64,000 nucleotides of DNA, taken from Escherichia phage vB-EcoP-XT32. The position numbers were made by a program, and so were the translations under genes. This document shows positions 5,748-62,906 of this stretch, in pieces (positions within the stretch are counted from its first letter, which is position 1; every line of letters starts with the position of its first letter). Below the pieces are notes generated by a model. That model was not told the origin of the DNA, did not search any database, and saw nothing but the letters and a program-made list of their open reading frames with translations. The stretch is taken from the sequence record OR757435; one strand, 5' to 3'.

Positions 5748-6809
5748 ATGGCTAATCCAACTTTATTTGTATCGTATGACCAGAATGGTAAAAAACTTTC
5801 TTTTGCTAACTGGATTTCTGTTCTGTCCCCTCAGGATACCCCGTTCGTATCCATGACCGGTAAAGAGTCTATCAACCAGACTATCTTTAGCTGGCAGACC
5901 GATGCACTGGCAAGCGTTGATGGTAATAACGCACACGTCGAAGGCTCTCGTGCTGAAGACGGCGAAATGAAACCGACTGTTATCAAGTCTAACGTTACTC
6001 AGATTCTGCGTAAGGTTGTTCGTGTTTCTGACACTGCTAACACCACCGCTAACTACGGTCGTGGTCGCGAACTGATGTACCAGCTGGAGAAGAAAGGTAA
6101 AGAGATCAAGCGTGACCTCGAGAAAATCCTTCTGTCTGGTCAGGCTCGTACCGACGTTCTGGCTGACCAATACCTGACTAACTCTGCCGCTGACCCAGAT
6201 CAGATTGGCAAGAACGACACCCATGCAGCTCGTAAGACTGGTGCATTCCAGTTCCTGTGTGCTCACGGTGGTCTGGCTGGCGGCGTTGTTGACAAGACCA
6301 AGAATGGTCCTGCTGACCCGGATACTGGTGCAATCACTGTTAAAGTTGCACAGAACGCTTCTAACCCGGCTACTAACATCGGCTTTGATGAAGCAGATAT
6401 CTTTGATATGACTCTGCAACTGTACACCGCTGGTTCTGAAGCAGATATCATCATGATTAACCCGGCTCATGCTAAGATCTTCGCTGGTCTGCAAGAAAAT
6501 ACTCAGGGTTCACGTAAGCGTATCTTTGAAAACACCAAGCAGTTCATTTACGAAGTTAACAGCATCACTGACCCGCTGGGCCAGAGCTACAAAATCATCG
6601 TTAACCGTTGGATGCCTACCGATGCAGTTTACTTCTTCCGTAGCGCTGACTGGACTCAGATGGTTCTGCGTGCTCCGAAACGTACTGAACTGGCTAAAGA
6701 TGGTTCTTACGAAAAATGGATGATTGAGATGGAAGTTGGTCTGCGTCACCGCAACCCGTATGCTTCCGGTGTTCTGTTCACTGCTGCGGGAAAGGCAGTG
6801 GCGGCGTAA
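5748..6809 (+). CDS. major capsid protein
   Basis: 353 aa; strong RBS (AGGAG) 10 nt upstream; follows scaffold; codon usage biased to common codons; size typical of HK97-fold podophage capsid proteins. Confidence 0.8.
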   Translation: MANPTLFVSYDQNGKKLSFANWISVLSPQDTPFVSMTGKESINQTIFSWQTDALASVDGNNAHVEGSRAEDGEMKPTVIKSNVTQILRKVVRVSDTANTTANYGRGRELMYQLEKKGKEIKRDLEKILLSGQARTDVLADQYLTNSAADPDQIGKNDTHAARKTGAFQFLCAHGGLAGGVVDKTKNGPADPDTGAITVKVAQNASNPATNIGFDEADIFDMTLQLYTAGSEADIIMINPAHAKIFAGLQENTQGSRKRIFENTKQFIYEVNSITDPLGQSYKIIVNRWMPTDAVYFFRSADWTQMVLRAPKRTELAKDGSYEKWMIEMEVGLRHRNPYASGVLFTAAGKAVAA

Positions 6810-7336
6810 CAGTAGATACCATAACTGTTAGTCCTTCGTCGGTTGCAAGCCTTCCGACGGGGGCTACTCAGCAGTTTACAGCTACAGCACAAATCAGTGA
6901 TAGCTCCACATCAACAACTGGATTTGTTTGGTCCGTTGAGGGTGGTGGGGCTATTTCTGTTTCTGGACTGTATACTGCACCGAGTGCGTCGCAAGAATCC
7001 CCGATTACAGTGAAAGCTACTAAAGGTGGTAAATCCGGTACATCTACGATCTCAGCTATTGCTGACCCTGAACCTACCCTTGTTAGCCGAGGGCCGATTT
7101 CAGGGAAGGTGGGTGGATCAACAACCGCATTCTCTACTATGTTTACAGCAACAAACTCTACCGGAAGTGACTATACTTTTGAGGTAACTCCTCCGGAAGC
7201 GGGCACTGTTAGTGCAGCTGGTCTTTTGACTCTTGCTGATACTGCTACGGGTGCAGTCTCTGTTACAGCTACACACGAGACTAAACCTCTTGTAACAGCC
7301 ACTTGTGAATTCACAGGTGTAACACCTGCTGCTTAA
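5748..7336 (+). CDS. major capsid protein, C-terminally extended isoform via putative -1 frameshift at 6788-6794 (Ig-like/Big_2-type extension, about 180 aa)
   Basis: -1 frame downstream of slippery site encodes Ig-like repeats (ITVSPSSVASLPTGATQQFTATAQ..., ITVKATKGGKSGTSTISAI...); no RBS or ATG for an independent gene (track ORF 7010 starts at GTG without SD). Confidence 0.55.
6788..6794 (+). promoter_or_regulatory. putative -1 programmed ribosomal frameshift slippery heptamer G_GGA_AAG
   Basis: X_XXY_YYZ heptamer in capsid zero frame, 13 nt before capsid stop; -1 frame is open from 6728 through 7336. Confidence 0.55.
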
Positions 7337-43796: not shown

Positions 43797-44360
43797 TTAG
43801 TAAGACACATCGCCACTTGAGTGGGACATGTTGCTCTTGACGAAGTAGCAATACTTGCCAAGACCTTCATTAATTTCTTGAAGCATACTCTGATCAACTG
43901 GATAAGTGGCTAAATCACCATCAAACTCATCCATCTTCTCAATAATACACATCAAGGTCATGCACATATCAGAGAGCATACCGTCCATATCTAGGTCAGC
44001 ATTACCCTCTGAGAACCAAGCATGGGAGAGATAATTGGCTGCTGTGGCGTCCACTTTAACACAGTGGTAACGCATACGTTCAGCAATACGATCTCCTACT
44101 TGTCGTGCGTAATCTTCCAGCTCATCAAACATACCATGAACACCCTGAAATCCTGCACCAGAGACGTTCCAATGGTAGTTTTTAGCTTTGATATGCAAGA
44201 GTTCTATGTTAGCTTGTAAGCAGCTCAGGATGTGTTCTAGGCTGTTTCCACTAATCATACCCTGCATTGTTTCAAGGCGAGAGATTGAAAGCTCTGATCG
44301 GTCTAACATATTATATTCGGCACGACCAATCTCAGGTAAATCAAAAACATTCTTATGCAT
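43797..44360 (-). CDS. Dps/ferritin-like protein
   Basis: 187 aa; LHIKAKNYHWNVSGAGFQGVHGMFDELEDYARQVGDRIAERM matches Dps ferroxidase-site pattern (HWN ... H ... D ... E); ATG abuts the assembly gap. Confidence 0.65.
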   Translation of the reverse strand: MHKNVFDLPEIGRAEYNMLDRSELSISRLETMQGMISGNSLEHILSCLQANIELLHIKAKNYHWNVSGAGFQGVHGMFDELEDYARQVGDRIAERMRYHCVKVDATAANYLSHAWFSEGNADLDMDGMLSDMCMTLMCIIEKMDEFDGDLATYPVDQSMLQEINEGLGKYCYFVKSNMSHSSGDVSY

Positions 44361-44856
44361 TNNNNNNNNNNNNNNNNNNNNNNNNNNNNNNNNNNNNNNN
44401 NNNNNNNNNNNNNNNNNNNNNNNNNNNNNNNNNNNNNNNNNNNNNNNNNNNNNNNNNNNNNNNNNNNNNNNNNNNNNNNNNNNNNNNNNNNNNNNNNNNN
44501 NNNNNNNNNNNNNNNNNNNNNNNNNNNNNNNNNNNNNNNNNNNNNNNNNNNNNNNNNNNNNNNNNNNNNNNNNNNNNNNNNNNNNNNNNNNNNNNNNNNN
44601 NNNNNNNNNNNNNNNNNNNNNNNNNNNNNNNNNNNNNNNNNNNNNNNNNNNNNNNNNNNNNNNNNNNNNNNNNNNNNNNNNNNNNNNNNNNNNNNNNNNN
44701 NNNNNNNNNNNNNNNNNNNNNNNNNNNNNNNNNNNNNNNNNNNNNNNNNNNNNNNNNNNNNNNNNNNNNNNNNNNNNNNNNNNNNNNNNNNNNNNNNNNN
44801 NNNNNNNNNNNNNNNNNNNNNNNNNNNNNNNNNNNNNNNNNNNNNNNNNNNNNNNN
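44361..44856. other. assembly gap (496 N)
   Basis: Run of N characters; sequence unknown. Confidence 0.99.
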
Positions 44857-44965
44857 GTTTCTTAGCAATACGAGCCTCTTTGCGAGTGTCAAACAATTTG
44901 ATGCTATCTTTTCTCGTGTGTTGATCAAGATCCCAAACAACACGAATCGCCCACATCTTTTTCAT
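44857..44965 (-). CDS. small protein of the paralogous family, 5' portion only (3' end lost in gap)
   Basis: MKKMWAIRVVWDLDQHTRKDSIKLFDTRKEARIAKK then runs into N. Confidence 0.4.
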
Positions 44966-52780: not shown

Positions 52781-54811
52781 TTAACCTCTATTCAATGAAC
52801 ATTTAGGAGAATTACAATAAACTTGATTCATAGAACCAAGCGTACAACTTTCAGCATCGCGCCACGGAATCTGCTTAAAACACTCTGAGCAGTAGCCGAG
52901 GGTTGACCACATGGCTTTGGTGAAGTCAGTGCTTCGGTTTCCGTCGAAGCTGACAACAGTTTTGCGGAGAGCTGTTCGTGATTCAGGAAACACACCTGCT
53001 TTCTCAGCAGGTTCCTCCTTTTTTGGCTTAGTTGAGATTGCAAAAATACTGTTGCTACGTTTCTCAACATAAGCATCAACAACATCCTCCAGAGTGATGC
53101 CTGTCTGTTTCGCTGAGGAAGGTAATACAGTCATACGACCGATCATATCTTCAGTTACACGTAAAGCAAACTCAGGACGACGGGCGTTTGTTGTATCTGT
53201 TGCTTTAATCCAGACATAACCATCTTTGATCGTAGCATTAGATACCTTCTTCTTTACATCTACAGCGCAGACTTTACAGATATCTTCACCACGAAGACGA
53301 CTAAGTTCTTCATCGAACTCATTCTCCGTTTTAACTTCACCGCAGATTTCACAAACACCAATAGGAGTTTCCTCCTCTTCTTCATCTTTAGGTTTAGTCA
53401 AACCTTCCAGACATTCAGGGTGCCAGTAGCATTGATATGCGAAGACTGCTTTAGGTGCATCCTTCCAATCAATGTGTTTGTCACAACCACCGCAATCACC
53501 ATGAGAGTGTGCTTCCCAGAATTTACGAGTGATAGTAACGCCATTCTTGTTGACGAAACTATCATTCATATCAAAAGGGATATCATCATCGAAGTCAGCA
53601 GTAGTAGACTCAGGCTCCTTTTTCTCCAGAGATGGGTCAACAAAACGACCTGCTGTGATTACTAAACGAACCATAGCATTAACTTCGGAGATGCAGGATA
53701 CTGTCCCACGGTAAACGATTTTAGGGTCTTTCAGGGCATCCTGATAAGCCTTAATGTCTACGTTATGAACATCGCCTTCAATATACTCTTGAGACTTCTC
53801 ATCGTAGATATAACCAATCATCTTACCACGAGAAGGAACAGCACCAGCTGTTGCATAAGGAACAAACTCATGTGGTGTGATTTCCACAGTCATGTCGCGG
53901 CGAATGTCAATGTTTCGATCGCTTGCGATTTTGTTTTGACTTACCACTGCGTTTCTTCGACGAACGTCTGCCGCTGTCACTCCCGGCTTCGTGTCGTAAG
54001 GATTGCTTGTACTGCTTTTTGAGGAACTTTGATAATTGCTTTGGCTGTAGTTGTTCGAGTAGTAATTGCCCCAACGATTGATTACCGTAAAAACCGGAAG
54101 CTCGTGGGCGACCTCTTCAACTAGAGTCATACTGTTGTTTGACATATCAAAGATATATTCTGTACCAACTTTACATTCAAAGTGCTCATCAATTCGGTTT
54201 TTGTGAGACTTAGAACGCTTCAGAATCCACATCAACATGTCTTCTTCAGAAGCACCAAACCAATCTCTGTTACAACGTGCGAGATGGAAAGGACGCTCTT
54301 CATTACGGATGATATGAAGGCGGTTATCAGAAGCATCATGCCAGATTAAGGTGAAAGCACCATCCAGCTTTTGAATAGTCTCTGCTGCACCAATAGTGTT
54401 AATAGAGTGGCAGATGTTCTCACTGTCTACCTCGAAGTTTTTGCTGTCAGGTAACAGATCTTGGTCCATCAAGGTTCCATTATGAACCAGCGTGATGTTA
54501 CCATGTTGGAAAGGATGGGCGTTCTTGGCGTTAACTGCACCTTTCGTTGCATGACGGCTGTGACCAACAATCCATGAAGGTGCTACAGTGTAAGCTGTTT
54601 CACCAGTGGTGTGCTTCTTGTACTCATCTTGAAGGATGAATGCGAAAGAAGGAAGGGCTTCTTTATAGGTGAAGACTTCCTTAGTGCTCTTACGCTGACC
54701 AAAGATACCAGAGGAGTGTTGTCCTCGGAATACTCCAGCATAAAAGAGTTGGTTAAATACGTCTAAATCAGTGTTTGACAGATTACCGCCAGCTAATACG
54801 ATGCCACAAAT
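52781..54811 (-). CDS. class-II (Ntn) glutamine amidotransferase fused to C-terminal Cys-cluster domain; probable non-ATG (ATT) start
   Basis: Track ORF starts at internal TTG 54472; frame stays open upstream to a TAG, encoding (I)CGIVLAGG ... FRGQHSSGIFG ... NAKNAHPF ... LVHNGTL typical of PurF/GlmS/AsnB-type GATase; AGGTGG 8 nt before ATT-TGT. Confidence 0.7.
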   Translation of the reverse strand: MCGIVLAGGNLSNTDLDVFNQLFYAGVFRGQHSSGIFGQRKSTKEVFTYKEALPSFAFILQDEYKKHTTGETAYTVAPSWIVGHSRHATKGAVNAKNAHPFQHGNITLVHNGTLMDQDLLPDSKNFEVDSENICHSINTIGAAETIQKLDGAFTLIWHDASDNRLHIIRNEERPFHLARCNRDWFGASEEDMLMWILKRSKSHKNRIDEHFECKVGTEYIFDMSNNSMTLVEEVAHELPVFTVINRWGNYYSNNYSQSNYQSSSKSSTSNPYDTKPGVTAADVRRRNAVVSQNKIASDRNIDIRRDMTVEITPHEFVPYATAGAVPSRGKMIGYIYDEKSQEYIEGDVHNVDIKAYQDALKDPKIVYRGTVSCISEVNAMVRLVITAGRFVDPSLEKKEPESTTADFDDDIPFDMNDSFVNKNGVTITRKFWEAHSHGDCGGCDKHIDWKDAPKAVFAYQCYWHPECLEGLTKPKDEEEEETPIGVCEICGEVKTENEFDEELSRLRGEDICKVCAVDVKKKVSNATIKDGYVWIKATDTTNARRPEFALRVTEDMIGRMTVLPSSAKQTGITLEDVVDAYVEKRSNSIFAISTKPKKEEPAEKAGVFPESRTALRKTVVSFDGNRSTDFTKAMWSTLGYCSECFKQIPWRDAESCTLGSMNQVYCNSPKCSLNRG

Positions 54812-54890
54812 TTTCTAATCCACCTGAAGGGTAAACCCTTTCATCTAATTAACCTTTAAATTGTGCCCCTTTGTCAGAGGCACCCATTGA

Positions 54891-55994
54891 TTACAGCGCT
54901 TGCTCTAACTGATTTTCCAGATGATCTGGAATGTACCCTGTGATGTTGTTATCACTGTGGCCTGACTCACGCAGTAAGTCAAAGATAGCACGGATACGTT
55001 GTTCTGGAGCGTGTCTTACTTGAGACAGGTCAGTTGTACGAAGCATAACCAGAATCTCTTGGTACAAGTTGTTAGCATTCCCTCGGACATACCCAAGGAA
55101 TCCGTAGAAGTCTGACATATAACGTAAGTCAACAAGAACATCTCCGTTGGAGTTGGTTCGACGTAAACGAATACGACCAGACTGCTCTACTTCATGAGAA
55201 CGACAATACAAAACATCACGGGCCATACAATACCCTGAATGCAAATCCGATTCGTCCAGATTGTAATCCAGAGGAAGGTAAGGAAGCATTGGGGCAAATC
55301 GTACAGTATTTAAATGCTCAATAAACTGATCATTGCTCATCTCTGCGTTATCTAATGCAAGCTTCTTCAACATCAAGAAGCGGTTAACCAGATTGAGAAG
55401 TTGACCACGTTTCCACTTAGGCTCACTGATACGGAACTCGATCGAACCGTATTGGGCAAGTGGCAGAAGGTTCAGAGATGTATATTTATCCCATGAACGA
55501 ACCAGACGGTTGAAGAACTCTTCATCGTCGTAGTTAAATGCGTCAGAGGCATTCATTACCTGTGCTTGTACCACTGCGAAAGCAGGGCAGAAGTTGCTAC
55601 GGTAACGATGGTAGCCTGAACACTTGAACAACATCTTTTCATAGAAGGTCCAAGCGAGAATGGTTTTCTTGAGGATATTACTATCAGCATCCCTCATATC
55701 CATATGAACGTGAGTAGAGCAACGCCAAGTCCCCTCGGCGTGCGATTCAGCTACTGCTTCACTCAGGTTGTTGATAGCGTCTAACAACTCCTGTCCGTTG
55801 TAAGGTCGTGAACATACCATTTCACAACCATTACGCAGGGAACCATCCTCTGTACAATCCCACATATCTGCTTCGATATGATCGGAACCTTCGAGTTCAA
55901 GTTCAATACCGACACCGCACTGAAGTGCAATTGAACTATGCGCCTCAGTTAAACGACCTTCTCGATATCCAAAAGTTTGCGCTACAGTTGTCAT
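54891..55994 (-). CDS. glutamine synthetase-like COOH-NH2 amidoligase
   Basis: 367 aa; GVGIELELEG, EDGSLRNGCE, STHVHMDMRD resemble amidoligase/GS-like catalytic motifs. Confidence 0.6.
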   Translation of the reverse strand: MTTVAQTFGYREGRLTEAHSSIALQCGVGIELELEGSDHIEADMWDCTEDGSLRNGCEMVCSRPYNGQELLDAINNLSEAVAESHAEGTWRCSTHVHMDMRDADSNILKKTILAWTFYEKMLFKCSGYHRYRSNFCPAFAVVQAQVMNASDAFNYDDEEFFNRLVRSWDKYTSLNLLPLAQYGSIEFRISEPKWKRGQLLNLVNRFLMLKKLALDNAEMSNDQFIEHLNTVRFAPMLPYLPLDYNLDESDLHSGYCMARDVLYCRSHEVEQSGRIRLRRTNSNGDVLVDLRYMSDFYGFLGYVRGNANNLYQEILVMLRTTDLSQVRHAPEQRIRAIFDLLRESGHSDNNITGYIPDHLENQLEQAL

Positions 55995-62125: not shown

Positions 62126-62774
62126 ACATCCTCCAATTAGATATTGTTTGATTTGGTTACAGGTGTAGGGTTCGGACCTACGCTCGGACTCCCTAGCCAT
62201 CACCAAAGGGATGCACCCAATGGGCATACGGTCATTTGACCACGGGCGACTGCTTTACCATAGGCTCTGCATTAATTAGCCTCATAAGCTATACCTGTAA
62301 TTGATTGCCAGGGATTCCACCTGGCTCCATCTGTTTTTAAAGTCACTCAGATATCGTCCGGACTCTTTGCTGAGGGCCGTACAGGCTACTTTAAGTAACT
62401 TCTGTAAAGATTATTCCACAGCTTACCGTGATGAGGTATCTACTCATCAGGAGAGTACACTAACTCTGGGCCACGCTGTAGATATCAGCCTCCCTTCTAC
62501 AGCTAATCAGCTAATGCACCCTCCTGATAATTTATAAATAGGGGGAGGGGACGAATCCTCCCTTATCCTATTAATTAATATTGCATGTAAGATCTAACAA
62601 TCGGATGCCTTTGTAGGAATAAGCGTTATGCTAAATCCAGCACTAAACTCCCGCCCCCTTAGTGGGCTGGGTTATTAAAGGGTAACGCCCTTATGGGCTA
62701 GTTACGTGAATGTTAGTTTGATAGGAGATCTGAAGTCCTATCTCAAAGGACTCTCGTAAGAATCCTTCACGATA

Positions 62775-62906
62775 TTACTTATTCATCTCTCGTCGGCTAT
62801 CTCTCCAAGCCAACCAAGTGTAGGTTTTCAGCTCTTCAAAGTCTTCTGGAGAGAATAGATATTCTTTGAAGGTATTTCCAAACCACTTTAAAAATTCTTC
62901 AGTCAT
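62775..62906 (-). CDS. hypothetical small protein
   Basis: 43-aa ORF MTEEFLKWFGNTFKEY... with AAGAGG upstream. Confidence 0.3.
   Translation of the reverse strand: MTEEFLKWFGNTFKEYLFSPEDFEELKTYTWLAWRDSRREMNK

What the first reader, a model, noticed from the sequence alone, without database searches (positions are those of the whole stretch)
54806..54830. Glutamine amidotransferase gene appears to start at a non-ATG (ATT) codon directly before the catalytic Cys
Class-II amidotransferases need Cys as residue 1 after Met removal. The ORF track starts this gene at an internal TTG (54472), but the frame is open 113 codons further upstream and encodes the whole Ntn domain starting ...TAG-AAA-ATT-TGT(Cys)-GGC-ATC-GTA. 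No ATG/GTG/TTG precedes the Cys, yet an AGGTGG Shine-Dalgarno-like element sits 8 nt upstream of ATT. Either translation starts at AUU (rare, often autoregulatory), or there is a sequencing error in the start codon, or there is a processed leader.
Basis: partly seen in the sequence, partly recalled or inferred. Interest (0 to 1): 0.5.

Follow-up and report, generated by a model that had tools for sequence, protein, structure and literature searches.

The report
Phage amidotransferase gene starting at AUU
A phage enzyme gene whose working end must begin with cysteine really does lack a normal start codon and almost certainly starts at the rare, weak codon AUU; this is already annotated for the type phage phiEco32, but weak start codons recur across the enzyme family together with a small RNA hairpin beside the ribosome-binding site.

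Summary
The window is a Kuravirus (phiEco32/SU10-like coliphage). On the minus strand, TAG-AAA-ATT-TGT (54817-54806) opens a 676-codon frame. The first in-frame ATG/GTG/TTG is 113 codons downstream, and AGGTGG lies 8 nt before the ATT.

It is not a sequencing error: 98 phage records carry this leader and 67 are identical over 70 nt. The 113 start-less codons are translated (dN/dS about 0.08; above 1.5 in control frames). The Cys aligns with residue 1 of mature GlmS and PurF. Relatives in Grimontviridae have ATG exactly where ATT sits.

AUU initiation is therefore the best explanation (about 0.8), although no N-terminal data exist. It is not new: phiEco32 YP_001671828 and SU10 gp85 are deposited as 676-aa ATT models, though most listed database copies are truncated to 562-563 aa.

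What appears new:
- ATT/ATC precedes the Cys in 11 of 70 dereplicated family leaders, in at least three lineages.
- These leaders have stronger SDs and a hairpin abutting the SD, which covaries in the environmental clade.
- In Gordonclarkvirinae a 58-nt leader block is invariant.

Interest is moderate.

The parts
52781..54811 (-). Full glutamine amidotransferase CDS as proposed: ATT start to TAA stop, 676 codons, 76.1 kDa. It has an N-terminal class-II (Ntn) GATase domain of about 200 aa and a Cys-rich C-terminal region of about 450 aa with no Pfam match.
   Evidence: The same model is deposited for phiEco32 phi32_83 and SU10_085.
54809..54811 (-). ATT, the proposed AUU initiation codon.
   Evidence: It sits immediately 5' of the catalytic Cys codon, where homologs have ATG. 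It is invariant in all Gordonclarkvirinae sequences read; the 70-nt leader containing it is 100% identical in 67 of 98 phage records.
54806..54808 (-). TGT, the catalytic N-terminal nucleophile Cys (residue 1 after Met removal).
   Evidence: Profile position 1 aligns with residue 1 of mature GlmS 1xff, PurF 1ecb and B. subtilis PurF 1ao0. It is invariant in 41 diverse family members.
54820..54825 (-). AGGTGG Shine-Dalgarno element, 8 nt upstream of ATT.
   Evidence: duplex with the 16S 3' end, -5.9 kcal/mol.
54827..54840 (-). Small hairpin AAGGG-UUUA-CCCUU ending 1 nt before the SD.
   Evidence: The stem is kept in BUCT695 with a changed loop and is lengthened by a paired A/U insertion in L118. 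Analogous SD-abutting hairpins covary in the environmental ATT clade.
54815..54844 (-). In-frame mini-uORF ATG AAA GGG TTT ACC CTT CAG GTG GAT TAG (MKGFTLQVD*). Its TAG is the stop two codons before the ATT.
   Evidence: It is conserved in BUCT695 with two nonsynonymous changes. It corresponds to the 3' end of an upstream HTH-like ORF in L118.
54804..54861 (-). 58-nt leader block that is invariant across Kuravirus, Nieuwekanaalvirus and Suseptimavirus. It covers the uORF, hairpin, SD, TAG, ATT, Cys codon and the first two bases of the following Gly codon.
   Evidence: flanks are only 30-70% invariant. (exact match with SU7 ranks 19th of 128 matches of at least 25 nt).
54863..54883 (-). Intercistronic hairpin GUGCCUCU-GACAA-AGGGGCAC between the amidoligase stop (54891-54893) and the invariant block.
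   Evidence: A compensatory U-A to C-G change is seen in SU7 and ECBP2. Its role is not established.
54467..54472 (-). Internal TTG-ATG used as the start by mechanical ORF calls and by most database entries. This gives a 562-563-aa product that lacks the catalytic Cys and half of the Ntn domain.
54805..54809 (-). Out-of-frame canonical start codons overlapping ATT-TGT: TTG 54809-54807 (8-codon ORF) and GTG 54807-54805 (4-codon ORF). They are possible decoys.
   Evidence: Read directly; not tested.

Best explanation
The gene encodes a class-II (Ntn) glutamine amidotransferase of the phage's amidoligase/ATP-grasp early-gene cluster. Translation starts at AUU (54811-54809).

Proposed sequence of events: a 30S subunit is anchored by the AGGUGG SD 8 nt upstream. 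fMet-tRNA pairs with AUU. Deformylase and methionine aminopeptidase then remove fMet and expose Cys (54808-54806) as residue 1, the catalytic nucleophile.

AUU is a poor initiator (1-2% of AUG in E. coli reporters) and IF3 discriminates against non-canonical start codons. It therefore throttles this one cistron within a long early operon, and may make it respond to the state of the initiation machinery.

Because the N-terminus of an Ntn enzyme cannot move, output can only be tuned through the start codon and its leader. That would explain why ATT, ATC, TTG and GTG recur in this family. It would also explain why the ATT/ATC genes carry stronger SDs and a small hairpin abutting the SD, which I infer stabilises or insulates SD presentation.

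Shown here: absence of any canonical start, translation of the N-terminal domain, homology of the ATT position to ATG in relatives, conservation of the arrangement, and covariation of the hairpin in the environmental clade. The SU10 paper shows by mass spectrometry that the SU10 ortholog is expressed.

Inferred: that AUU itself is the initiation site, the Met removal, the low or regulated expression, and the role of the hairpin.
For: - No in-frame ATG/GTG/TTG lies between TAG 54815-54817 and codon 113.
- Those codons have dN/dS 0.08, against more than 1.5 in the control frames.
- The Cys aligns with residue 1 of mature GlmS, PurF and processed B. subtilis PurF. C1, R28-G29, N110-G111 and D128 are invariant in 41 family members.
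- Pfam GATase_6 matches at E = 1e-14.
- Grimontviridae and most environmental homologs have ATG exactly at the ATT position.
- ATT is present in 98 phage records, 67 of them identical over 70 nt, and also in BUCT695 and L118.
- ATT/ATC genes elsewhere in the family have GGAGGA-type SDs at about 7 nt. For L118 and the environmental leaders L029, L085, L090, L091, L096, L101 and L105 no in-frame canonical start lies between the nearest upstream stop and the Cys.
- SD energy is -8.5 against -6.6 kcal/mol (p = 0.002).
- An SD-abutting hairpin is found in 7 of 10 ATT/ATC leaders against 5 of 50 ATG leaders (p = 2e-4).
- The hairpin covaries: 97.6% of cells paired, 6 of 6 pairs with double changes, 0 of 500 shuffles as high.
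- The SU10 ortholog was detected by mass spectrometry as an early protein.
- AUU initiates at 1-2% of AUG, and infC and pcnB are the confirmed E. coli precedents (bioRxiv 10.1101/063800).
- The phiEco32, SU10 and LAMP records already deposit the 676-aa MCGIV... product.
Against: - No N-terminal peptide, toeprint or initiation profiling exists. The SU10 mass-spectrometry table used the truncated 63.8-kDa model and lists no peptides.
- Out-of-frame TTG and GTG overlap the ATT and could capture the SD-bound ribosomes.
- BUCT695 has a weaker SD, AGGCGG.
- 58 nt of perfect conservation is more than an SD plus a start codon needs, so an additional unknown function is likely.
- The in-frame uORF ending 3 nt before the ATT is retained in two lineages, so reinitiation may contribute.
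- The statistics on SD strength and hairpins are not phylogenetically corrected. The tree is neighbour-joining on 200 aa.
- Stronger SDs in ATT genes fit uneasily with the idea that ATT simply lowers expression.
Confidence: 0.8

Rival explanations
1. Termination-reinitiation. Ribosomes translate the 9-codon uORF (ATG 54844 to TAG 54815), terminate 3 nt before the AUU, and restart there without leaving the mRNA. This would largely escape IF3 discrimination. AUU would still be the start codon, but it would depend on uORF translation.
For: - The uORF is in frame and retained in all Gordonclarkvirinae and in BUCT695.
- Its stop lies 3 nt from the ATT.
- In L118 an upstream HTH-like ORF stops at TAG TAA directly abutting the ATT, and in L032 an upstream ORF stops 1 nt before it.
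- The window's uORF aligns with the 3' end of the L118 ORF.
- The whole uORF lies inside the invariant 58-nt block.
Against: - L118 has no uORF ATG (CTG in its place).
- BUCT695 has no SD before the uORF ATG, and both of its uORF substitutions are nonsynonymous.
- Across the family, coupling to an upstream ORF of at least 25 codons is rarer for ATT/ATC genes (2 of 11) than for ATG genes (27 of 50).
- The uORF's own SD in the window is weak (AAAGG).
Confidence: 0.12
2. Read-through plus self-processing. Translation starts at ATG 54844 and reads through UAG 54817-54815. The Ntn domain then removes a 12-residue propeptide autocatalytically, as B. subtilis PurF removes its 11-residue propeptide.
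For: - ATG 54844 is in frame with the amidotransferase.
- Some Ntn amidotransferases mature from propeptides. This is established knowledge, and 1ao0/1gph align from the mature Cys.
Against: - No suppressor tRNA is present in the window.
- L118 has tandem in-frame stops TAG TAA and no upstream in-frame ATG within the uORF span.
- The environmental ATT/ATC lineages examined have in-frame stops 4-10 codons upstream with no canonical start in between.
- ATG-type relatives start directly at Met-Cys.
- Spontaneous UAG read-through is expected to be no more efficient than AUU initiation (own knowledge).
Confidence: 0.03
3. The N-terminal domain is not made. The real product starts at the internal TTG/ATG (54472/54469), is 563 aa, and lacks the amidotransferase nucleophile, as most database entries imply.
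For: - It is the first canonical start in the frame.
- Most of the listed members of the 211-member cluster are 562-563 aa.
- The SU10 proteomics table lists 63.8 kDa.
Against: - The 113 upstream codons have dN/dS 0.08 in this frame only.
- All catalytic residues are invariant.
- The truncation would cut the Ntn fold in half.
- The 63.8 kDa figure is only the search-database model, not a measured mass.
- SU10's own S1 table lists 677 codons.
Confidence: 0.02
4. Sequencing or assembly error, or a pseudogene, in this particular genome.
For: One relative (172-1) does carry a 1-nt insertion in the N-terminal domain.
Against: ATT and its leader are identical in 67 records and nearly identical in 29 more, from many laboratories and sequencing platforms. 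They also occur in metagenome contigs.
Confidence: 0.01

Closest known systems
phiEco32 phi32_83 (YP_001671828.1 / UniProt B0FIP5) and SU10 gp85 (AIF71837.1)
   Same: Orthologous gene with a 100% identical leader. Both are deposited as 676-aa proteins whose CDS begins at this ATT.
   Different: Nothing differs biologically. The start is an annotator's decision without published experimental support that I could find. Most sister records annotate a truncated or out-of-frame start instead.
E. coli infC (IF3), AUU start
   Same: A conserved AUU initiation codon behind an SD. AUU is the codon class that IF3 rejects (bioRxiv 10.1101/063800; autoregulation is own knowledge).
   Different: infC is autoregulatory because its product is IF3 itself. 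Here the product is an unrelated enzyme, so any IF3 dependence would be sensing rather than feedback. This was not tested.
E. coli pcnB (poly(A) polymerase), AUU start
   Same: An inefficient AUU start, described as limiting production of a protein that is needed at low level (own knowledge). Its start codon varies among taxa. This is the best functional analogy.
   Different: Unrelated protein. No SD-abutting hairpin or invariant leader is known to me for pcnB.
Class-II (Ntn) glutamine amidotransferases GlmS, PurF and AsnB
   Same: The same fold and catalytic motifs. The Cys must be residue 1.
   Different: The aligned E. coli GlmS and PurF chains begin at the Cys (Met-Cys genes), and B. subtilis PurF is matured from a propeptide. 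The phage protein instead has a C-terminal part of about 450 aa with no Pfam match in place of a known acceptor (synthase) domain.
B. subtilis PurF-type propeptide maturation
   Same: An alternative way to expose Cys1 without a Met-Cys start.
   Different: It requires an uninterrupted in-frame leader from a canonical start. Here a TAG intervenes.

Membership tests
Class-II (Ntn) glutamine amidotransferase | Cys nucleophile at the position of residue 1 of the mature enzyme | tested here: met
   Profile position 1 (Cys) aligns with residue 1 of 1xff (E = 6e-19), 1ecb and 1ao0. It is invariant in 41 sequences.
Class-II (Ntn) glutamine amidotransferase | Conserved catalytic and oxyanion motifs (Arg-Gly near residue 26, His-x-Arg-x-x-Thr-x-Gly, Asn-Gly, Asp) | tested here: met
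   R28, G29, H83, R85, T88, G90, N110, G111 and D128 are invariant. They align with the corresponding GlmS motifs.
Class-II (Ntn) glutamine amidotransferase | Match to curated domain models above threshold | tested here: met
   GATase_6 scores 55.1 bits (cut-off 27) and GATase_7 27.4 bits (cut-off 25).
Class-II (Ntn) glutamine amidotransferase | Glutaminase activity coupled to an acceptor domain | not testable with these tools
   The C-terminal region of about 450 aa has no Pfam match. The substrate is unknown.
AUU-initiated bacterial/phage genes (infC, pcnB type) | AUU at the only position compatible with the mature protein, with no in-frame canonical start upstream | tested here: met
AUU-initiated bacterial/phage genes (infC, pcnB type) | Shine-Dalgarno element at functional spacing | tested here: met
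   AGGTGG with an 8-nt spacer. ATT/ATC relatives have GGAGGA-type SDs with spacers of 5-7 nt as measured from the duplex end.
AUU-initiated bacterial/phage genes (infC, pcnB type) | Evolutionary retention of AUU among orthologs | tested here: met
   Three Gordonclarkvirinae genera, BUCT695 and L118.
AUU-initiated bacterial/phage genes (infC, pcnB type) | Direct demonstration of initiation at AUU (N-terminal sequence, toeprint or reporter) | not testable with these tools
   None found in the literature that could be searched. The SU10 mass spectrometry shows only that the protein is made.
AUU-initiated bacterial/phage genes (infC, pcnB type) | IF3-dependent modulation of expression | not testable with these tools
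   Needs IF3 overexpression or infC fidelity mutants with a reporter.
Propeptide-matured Ntn amidotransferase (B. subtilis PurF type) | Continuous in-frame leader from a canonical start codon to the Cys | tested here: not met
   TAG lies two codons before the Cys. L118 has TAG TAA.
Programmed stop-codon read-through | In-frame upstream start conserved wherever the stop-ATT arrangement occurs | tested here: not met
   Present in the window and BUCT695. Absent in L118 and in the environmental ATT leaders examined. No suppressor tRNA.
Known cis-regulatory RNA families (Rfam) | Match to a curated covariance model | tested here: not met
   Only two chance-level hits, 16-17 bits against gathering scores of 44 and 70.

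The most novel reading that the evidence does not exclude
The hairpin-SD-AUU arrangement may be a dedicated translational control module rather than merely a weak start. It would be recurrently selected, or anciently retained, in phage Ntn-amidotransferase genes. The 58-nt invariant leader in Gordonclarkvirinae would then be an operator that couples enzyme synthesis to the state of the initiation machinery (IF3 to ribosome ratio, or reinitiating ribosomes) or to an RNA-binding regulator. If so, this family would be the largest natural set of AUU/AUC-initiated genes known, with a built-in marker (Cys1) that fixes the start site unambiguously.
Probability: 0.25. Interest if true: 0.6.

Novelty: new member of a known kind. 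Interest (0 to 1): 0.4.

Why it matters
1. Annotation. Most public copies of this protein are truncated to 562-563 aa or start out of frame, and so lack the catalytic Cys. Gene callers that allow only ATG, GTG and TTG will keep making this error. The Cys1 rule gives a simple fix for the whole family.

2. Biology of start codons. According to Hecht et al., only two AUU starts, infC and pcnB, are confirmed in E. coli. Here ATT/ATC appears in 11 of 70 dereplicated leaders of one enzyme family. These leaders also have stronger SDs and a covarying SD-adjacent hairpin. That makes a natural system for asking how weak start codons are used and compensated.

3. Phage physiology. The enzyme belongs to the amidoligase/ATP-grasp cluster, whose function is still unknown. 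PMC10580990 summarises a proposal by Iyer et al. 2009 that it modifies the cell wall. Very tight control of its dose is a clue that excess enzyme is harmful or that its timing matters.

Tried and rejected
- **Long-range helix.** GGUUAAUuaGAUG (54853-54841) pairing with CAUCguAUUAGCU (54802-54790) would enclose the RBS and appears in the MFE fold. The fold's z-score is only -1.4, no covariation is possible because the block is invariant, and the upstream arm is not complementary in BUCT695. Dropped.
- **Promoter in the block.** No sigma-70-like site lies on the coding strand. The block is not repeated elsewhere in the window. It matches the phiEco32/SU10 phage-sigma motif tAATGTAt only weakly. 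Grimontviridae-type homologs do have TTTAAATGTAA upstream, which remains an open lead.
- **uORF as a conserved peptide.** Both substitutions in BUCT695 are nonsynonymous, and the ATG is missing in L118.
- **Translational coupling as a general requirement for ATT.** Not supported.
- **Known RNA family.** None.
- **Suppressor tRNA or recoding.** The window has only tRNA-Arg(TCT).
- **Single-sequence PDB search.** It found nothing. A 41-sequence profile was needed.
- **Genome-wide uniqueness of the 58-nt block.** It ranks only 19th of 128 exact matches with SU7, so it is notable but not unique.
- **Another start-less ORF (43797-44861).** This is an artefact of a region open in five frames. The Dps-like gene there starts at ATG 44360.
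- **Literature.** The phiEco32 papers (PMC2587145, PMC3275717) and Iyer et al. 2009 (PMC3268129) are not held. Searches for an AUU/ATT start in this phage or enzyme found nothing. The svsR sRNA paper is unrelated to this locus.
Full report
**What the window is.** The region matches Kuravirus genomes (phiEco32, SU10, NJ01, 172-1; 97-99% identity over 2.4 kb). The gene lies on the minus strand inside the early-gene cluster. That cluster encodes a COOH-NH2 ligase, an Amidoligase_2 protein, this amidotransferase and an ATP-grasp enzyme.

**Checking the observation.** The minus strand reads TAG (54817-54815) AAA ATT (54811-54809) TGT (54808-54806) GGC ATC GTA.
- AGGTGG occupies 54825-54820, which is 8 nt before the ATT.
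- The mechanical ORF starts at TTG 54472 and gives 563 aa.
- The frame is open for 113 more codons upstream, and none of them is ATG, GTG or TTG.

It missed one feature: ATG 54844-54842 is in frame and opens a 9-codon uORF (MKGFTLQVD) that ends at the same TAG.

**Is the N-terminal stretch real coding sequence?** Yes.
- Pfam finds class-II GATase domains across it (GATase_6, E = 1e-14).
- Against KBNP1711 the 113 start-less codons give dN/dS = 0.08. Against SU7 and ECBP2, dS is saturated. The two other frames of the same DNA give ratios above 1.5.
- A profile of 41 diverse family members places the Cys at residue 1 of mature E. coli GlmS (1xff, E = 6e-19), E. coli PurF (1ecb) and processed B. 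subtilis PurF (1ao0).
- C1, G2, R28-G29, H83/R85/T88/G90, N110-G111 and D128 are invariant in that alignment.

The enzyme can work only if this Cys becomes the N-terminus. A product started at the internal TTG would lack the nucleophile and half of the fold.

**Sequencing error?** No. The 70-nt stretch 54797-54866 is found in 98 phage records. 67 are 100% identical and 29 are 95-99% identical. Where I have the sequences, the change inside the block is the synonymous GGC to GGT. The same leader occurs in independent metagenome contigs.

**What homologs show.**
- In Kuravirus, Nieuwekanaalvirus (KBNP1711) and Suseptimavirus (SU7, ECBP2) the sequence is TAG AAA ATT TGT.
- In Grimontviridae relatives (GAP52, Vp_R1, P59, 7-11 and others) it is ATG TGT, giving MCGIVLAG..., with the ATG exactly where the ATT sits.

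This is the most direct evidence that ATT occupies the initiation position. Annotators disagree about the start:
- phiEco32 phi32_83 and SU10_085 start at the ATT.
- 172-1 uses an out-of-frame ATG, which is made possible by a 1-nt insertion in that record.
- Paul and SU7 use internal ATGs, and KBNP1711 an internal GTG.
- In the 90% protein cluster, phiEco32, SU10 and LAMP are 676 aa (MCGIV...), but most of the listed members are 562-563 aa.

The SU10 paper detected gp85 by mass spectrometry as an early protein (9 peptides, 23.7% coverage). It lists 63.8 kDa, which is exactly the truncated model; the full protein is 76.1 kDa. Expression is therefore shown, but the N-terminus is not.

**The leader.** Aligning three genera shows a block (54861-54804) with no substitution at all, while flanking coding DNA is invariant at only 30-70% of columns.
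- As an exact match between the window and SU7 it is 58 nt long and ranks 19th of 128 matches of at least 25 nt.
- It is the second-longest in the early region. That is comparable with the 80-nt terminator plus late-promoter match.
- The block contains the uORF, a hairpin AAGGG-UUUA-CCCUU (54840-54827) ending 1 nt before the SD, the SD, the TAG, the ATT and the Cys codon.
- It is not repeated elsewhere in the window, has no sigma-70-like site on the coding strand and matches no Rfam family.
- Upstream, a second hairpin (54883-54863) shows a compensatory U-A to C-G change.

**More divergent copies of the same leader.** Two relatives help separate the hypotheses.
- Aeromonas phage BUCT695 (Grimontviridae) has ATG AAA GGG TTA ACC CTT CAG GCG GAT TAG AAA ATT TGT. 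The stem is kept and the loop changed, both uORF changes are nonsynonymous, there is no SD before the uORF ATG, and the main SD is weaker.
- Contig L118 has ctgGAAAGGGAtttaTCCCTTGGAGAGGATTAGTAA ATT TGC. The stem is one pair longer through a paired insertion, and the uORF ATG is absent. An upstream HTH-like ORF runs through the hairpin and SD and stops at TAG TAA abutting the ATT. Its last codons align with the window's uORF, so the uORF is probably a vestige of that gene's 3' end.

The hairpin, SD, nearby stop and ATT are the conserved parts. The uORF start is not.

**Family-wide survey.** I used the Cys codon as an anchor in loci from IMG/VR, metagenomes and genomes. Among 70 dereplicated leaders the codon before the Cys was distributed as follows:

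| Codon before Cys | Leaders |
|---|---|
| ATG | 50 |
| ATT or ATC | 11 |
| TTG or GTG | 9 |

- On a neighbour-joining tree, ATT occurs in at least three separated places: the Gordonclarkvirinae clade nested among ATG clades, L032 with an ATG sister, and a mixed environmental clade where ATT, ATC, TTG and GTG outnumber ATG.
- Fitch parsimony needs at least 18 start-codon changes on 88 leaves, about 10 of them between ATT/ATC and canonical codons.
- For comparison, annotated bacterial starts are 81.8% ATG, 13.8% GTG and 4.35% TTG. Only infC and pcnB are confirmed AUU starts in E. coli.
- Distant homologs in bacterial MAGs at 26-28% identity (L122-L129) all use ATG.

**Compensating features in the ATT/ATC leaders.**
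- They have stronger SDs (mean -8.5 against -6.6 kcal/mol, p = 0.002) and more stable upstream structure (-6.6 against -4.2, p = 0.007).
- A stem of at least 5 bp ending within 4 nt of the SD is found in 7 of 10 ATT/ATC leaders, or 9 of 10 by eye. The figure is 5 of 50 for ATG leaders and 7.5% for shuffled leaders (Fisher p = 2e-4).
- In seven environmental leaders the hairpin aligns in register and covaries: 97.6% of cells are paired, all six pairs change on both sides, 0 of 500 shuffles reach the observed score, and slid controls reach at most 48%.
- Coupling to an upstream ORF of at least 25 codons is not enriched (2 of 11 against 27 of 50).

These statistics are not phylogenetically corrected. 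Whether ATT arose several times or is ancient and was often lost cannot be decided here. Either way it has been maintained by selection.

**Mechanism.** The best-supported model is direct, SD-driven initiation at AUU with fMet-tRNA, followed by removal of fMet to expose Cys1.
- AUU gives 1-2% of AUG output in E. coli reporters and IF3 disfavours non-canonical start codons. The codon would therefore hold down this one cistron within a long early operon, and possibly make it sensitive to the state of the initiation machinery.
- An Ntn enzyme cannot shift its N-terminus, so expression can be tuned only through the start codon and leader. I propose this as the reason for the unusual lability of the start codon in this family (inference).
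- The role of the hairpin (SD insulation, stacking on the SD-antiSD helix, mRNA stabilisation or a protein operator) is unknown.
- Reinitiation after the uORF may contribute in this lineage.
- Read-through plus propeptide processing, an internally initiated product, and sequencing error are each poorly supported.

**Novelty.** The ATT start of this gene has been in the public records for phiEco32 and two later phages, so the core finding is not new. It is unverified experimentally, and most database copies contradict it. I found no paper that discusses it. The following appear to be new observations on a known mechanism:
- the recurrence of ATT/ATC across the family;
- its association with strong SDs and a covarying SD-abutting hairpin;
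- the invariant 58-nt leader;
- the origin of the uORF as a vestige of an upstream gene.

Noticed in passing
window 54863-54883 (minus strand): An intercistronic hairpin GUGCCUCU-GACAA-AGGGGCAC lies just after the amidoligase stop codon. SU7 and ECBP2 show a compensatory U-A to C-G change in its stem. Only three U residues follow it. Some records with a terminator feature under the 2.4-kb match may be annotating it.
   Followed up: partly
L001 (phage 172-1, NC_028903) about 1949-1951; corresponds to window about 54656: The 172-1 record has a 1-nt T insertion in the N-terminal domain of the amidotransferase gene. It shifts the frame, which explains why RefSeq starts that CDS at an out-of-frame ATG. 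It is either a sequencing error or a real pseudogene.
   Followed up: partly
window 54805-54809 (minus strand): Out-of-frame TTG and GTG codons overlap ATT-TGT and open ORFs of 8 and 4 codons. They could act as decoy starts and lower amidotransferase output further.
   Followed up: no
L113 (BUCT695) about 2380-2508; L118 100-225; L032 about 1340-1496: In three separate ATT-type loci a small HTH/XRE-like ORF sits directly upstream of the amidotransferase gene. In L118 and L032 it stops 0-1 nt from the ATT. It could be a regulator of the cluster.
   Followed up: partly
L015, L017-L020 and L113, about 25-45 nt upstream of the start codon; window 54846-54860: Grimontviridae-type homologs share the motif TTTAAATGTAA(A/T) upstream of the gene. 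It resembles the phage-sigma promoter motif tAATGTAt reported for phiEco32 and SU10. In the window the motif is degenerate (TTTAAAGGTTAATTAG).
   Followed up: no
window 52781-54120 (minus strand), residues about 230-676 of the protein: The C-terminal two thirds of the protein have no Pfam match. They contain several CxxC-type Cys clusters (for example HGDCGGCDKH...CYWHPEC, CEICGE...CKVC, CSECFKQ...CNSPKC), which suggests zinc-ribbon modules in place of a known acceptor domain.
   Followed up: no
window 44300-44965: A stretch of about 660 nt is open in five of the six reading frames, with ORFs of 189-233 aa on both strands. It lies upstream of the Dps/ferritin-like gene (43797-44360). This suggests unusual composition or overlapping genes.
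   Followed up: partly
window 62718-62781: A 64-nt exact match with phage SU7 is the longest in the early region, longer than the amidotransferase leader block. I did not establish what it is.
   Followed up: no
window 6728-7336 (plus strand): This ORF has a 94-codon start-less 5' extension. By position it probably corresponds to the Ig-like extension of the major head protein, which the SU10 paper reports as made by ribosomal slippage (gp9+10).
   Followed up: partly
L068 1495-1510: One environmental homolog begins ATG TGC TGT GG (Met-Cys-Cys-Gly). That places two Cys residues at the N-terminus of an Ntn enzyme.
   Followed up: no
L115-L118 (Herbiconiux daphne CPCC 203386 scaffolds shorter than 1 kb): An actinobacterial genome assembly contains several tiny contigs that encode distinct phage-type amidotransferases with TTG, GTG and ATT starts. 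This is most likely phage contamination or co-assembled phage DNA.
   Followed up: no
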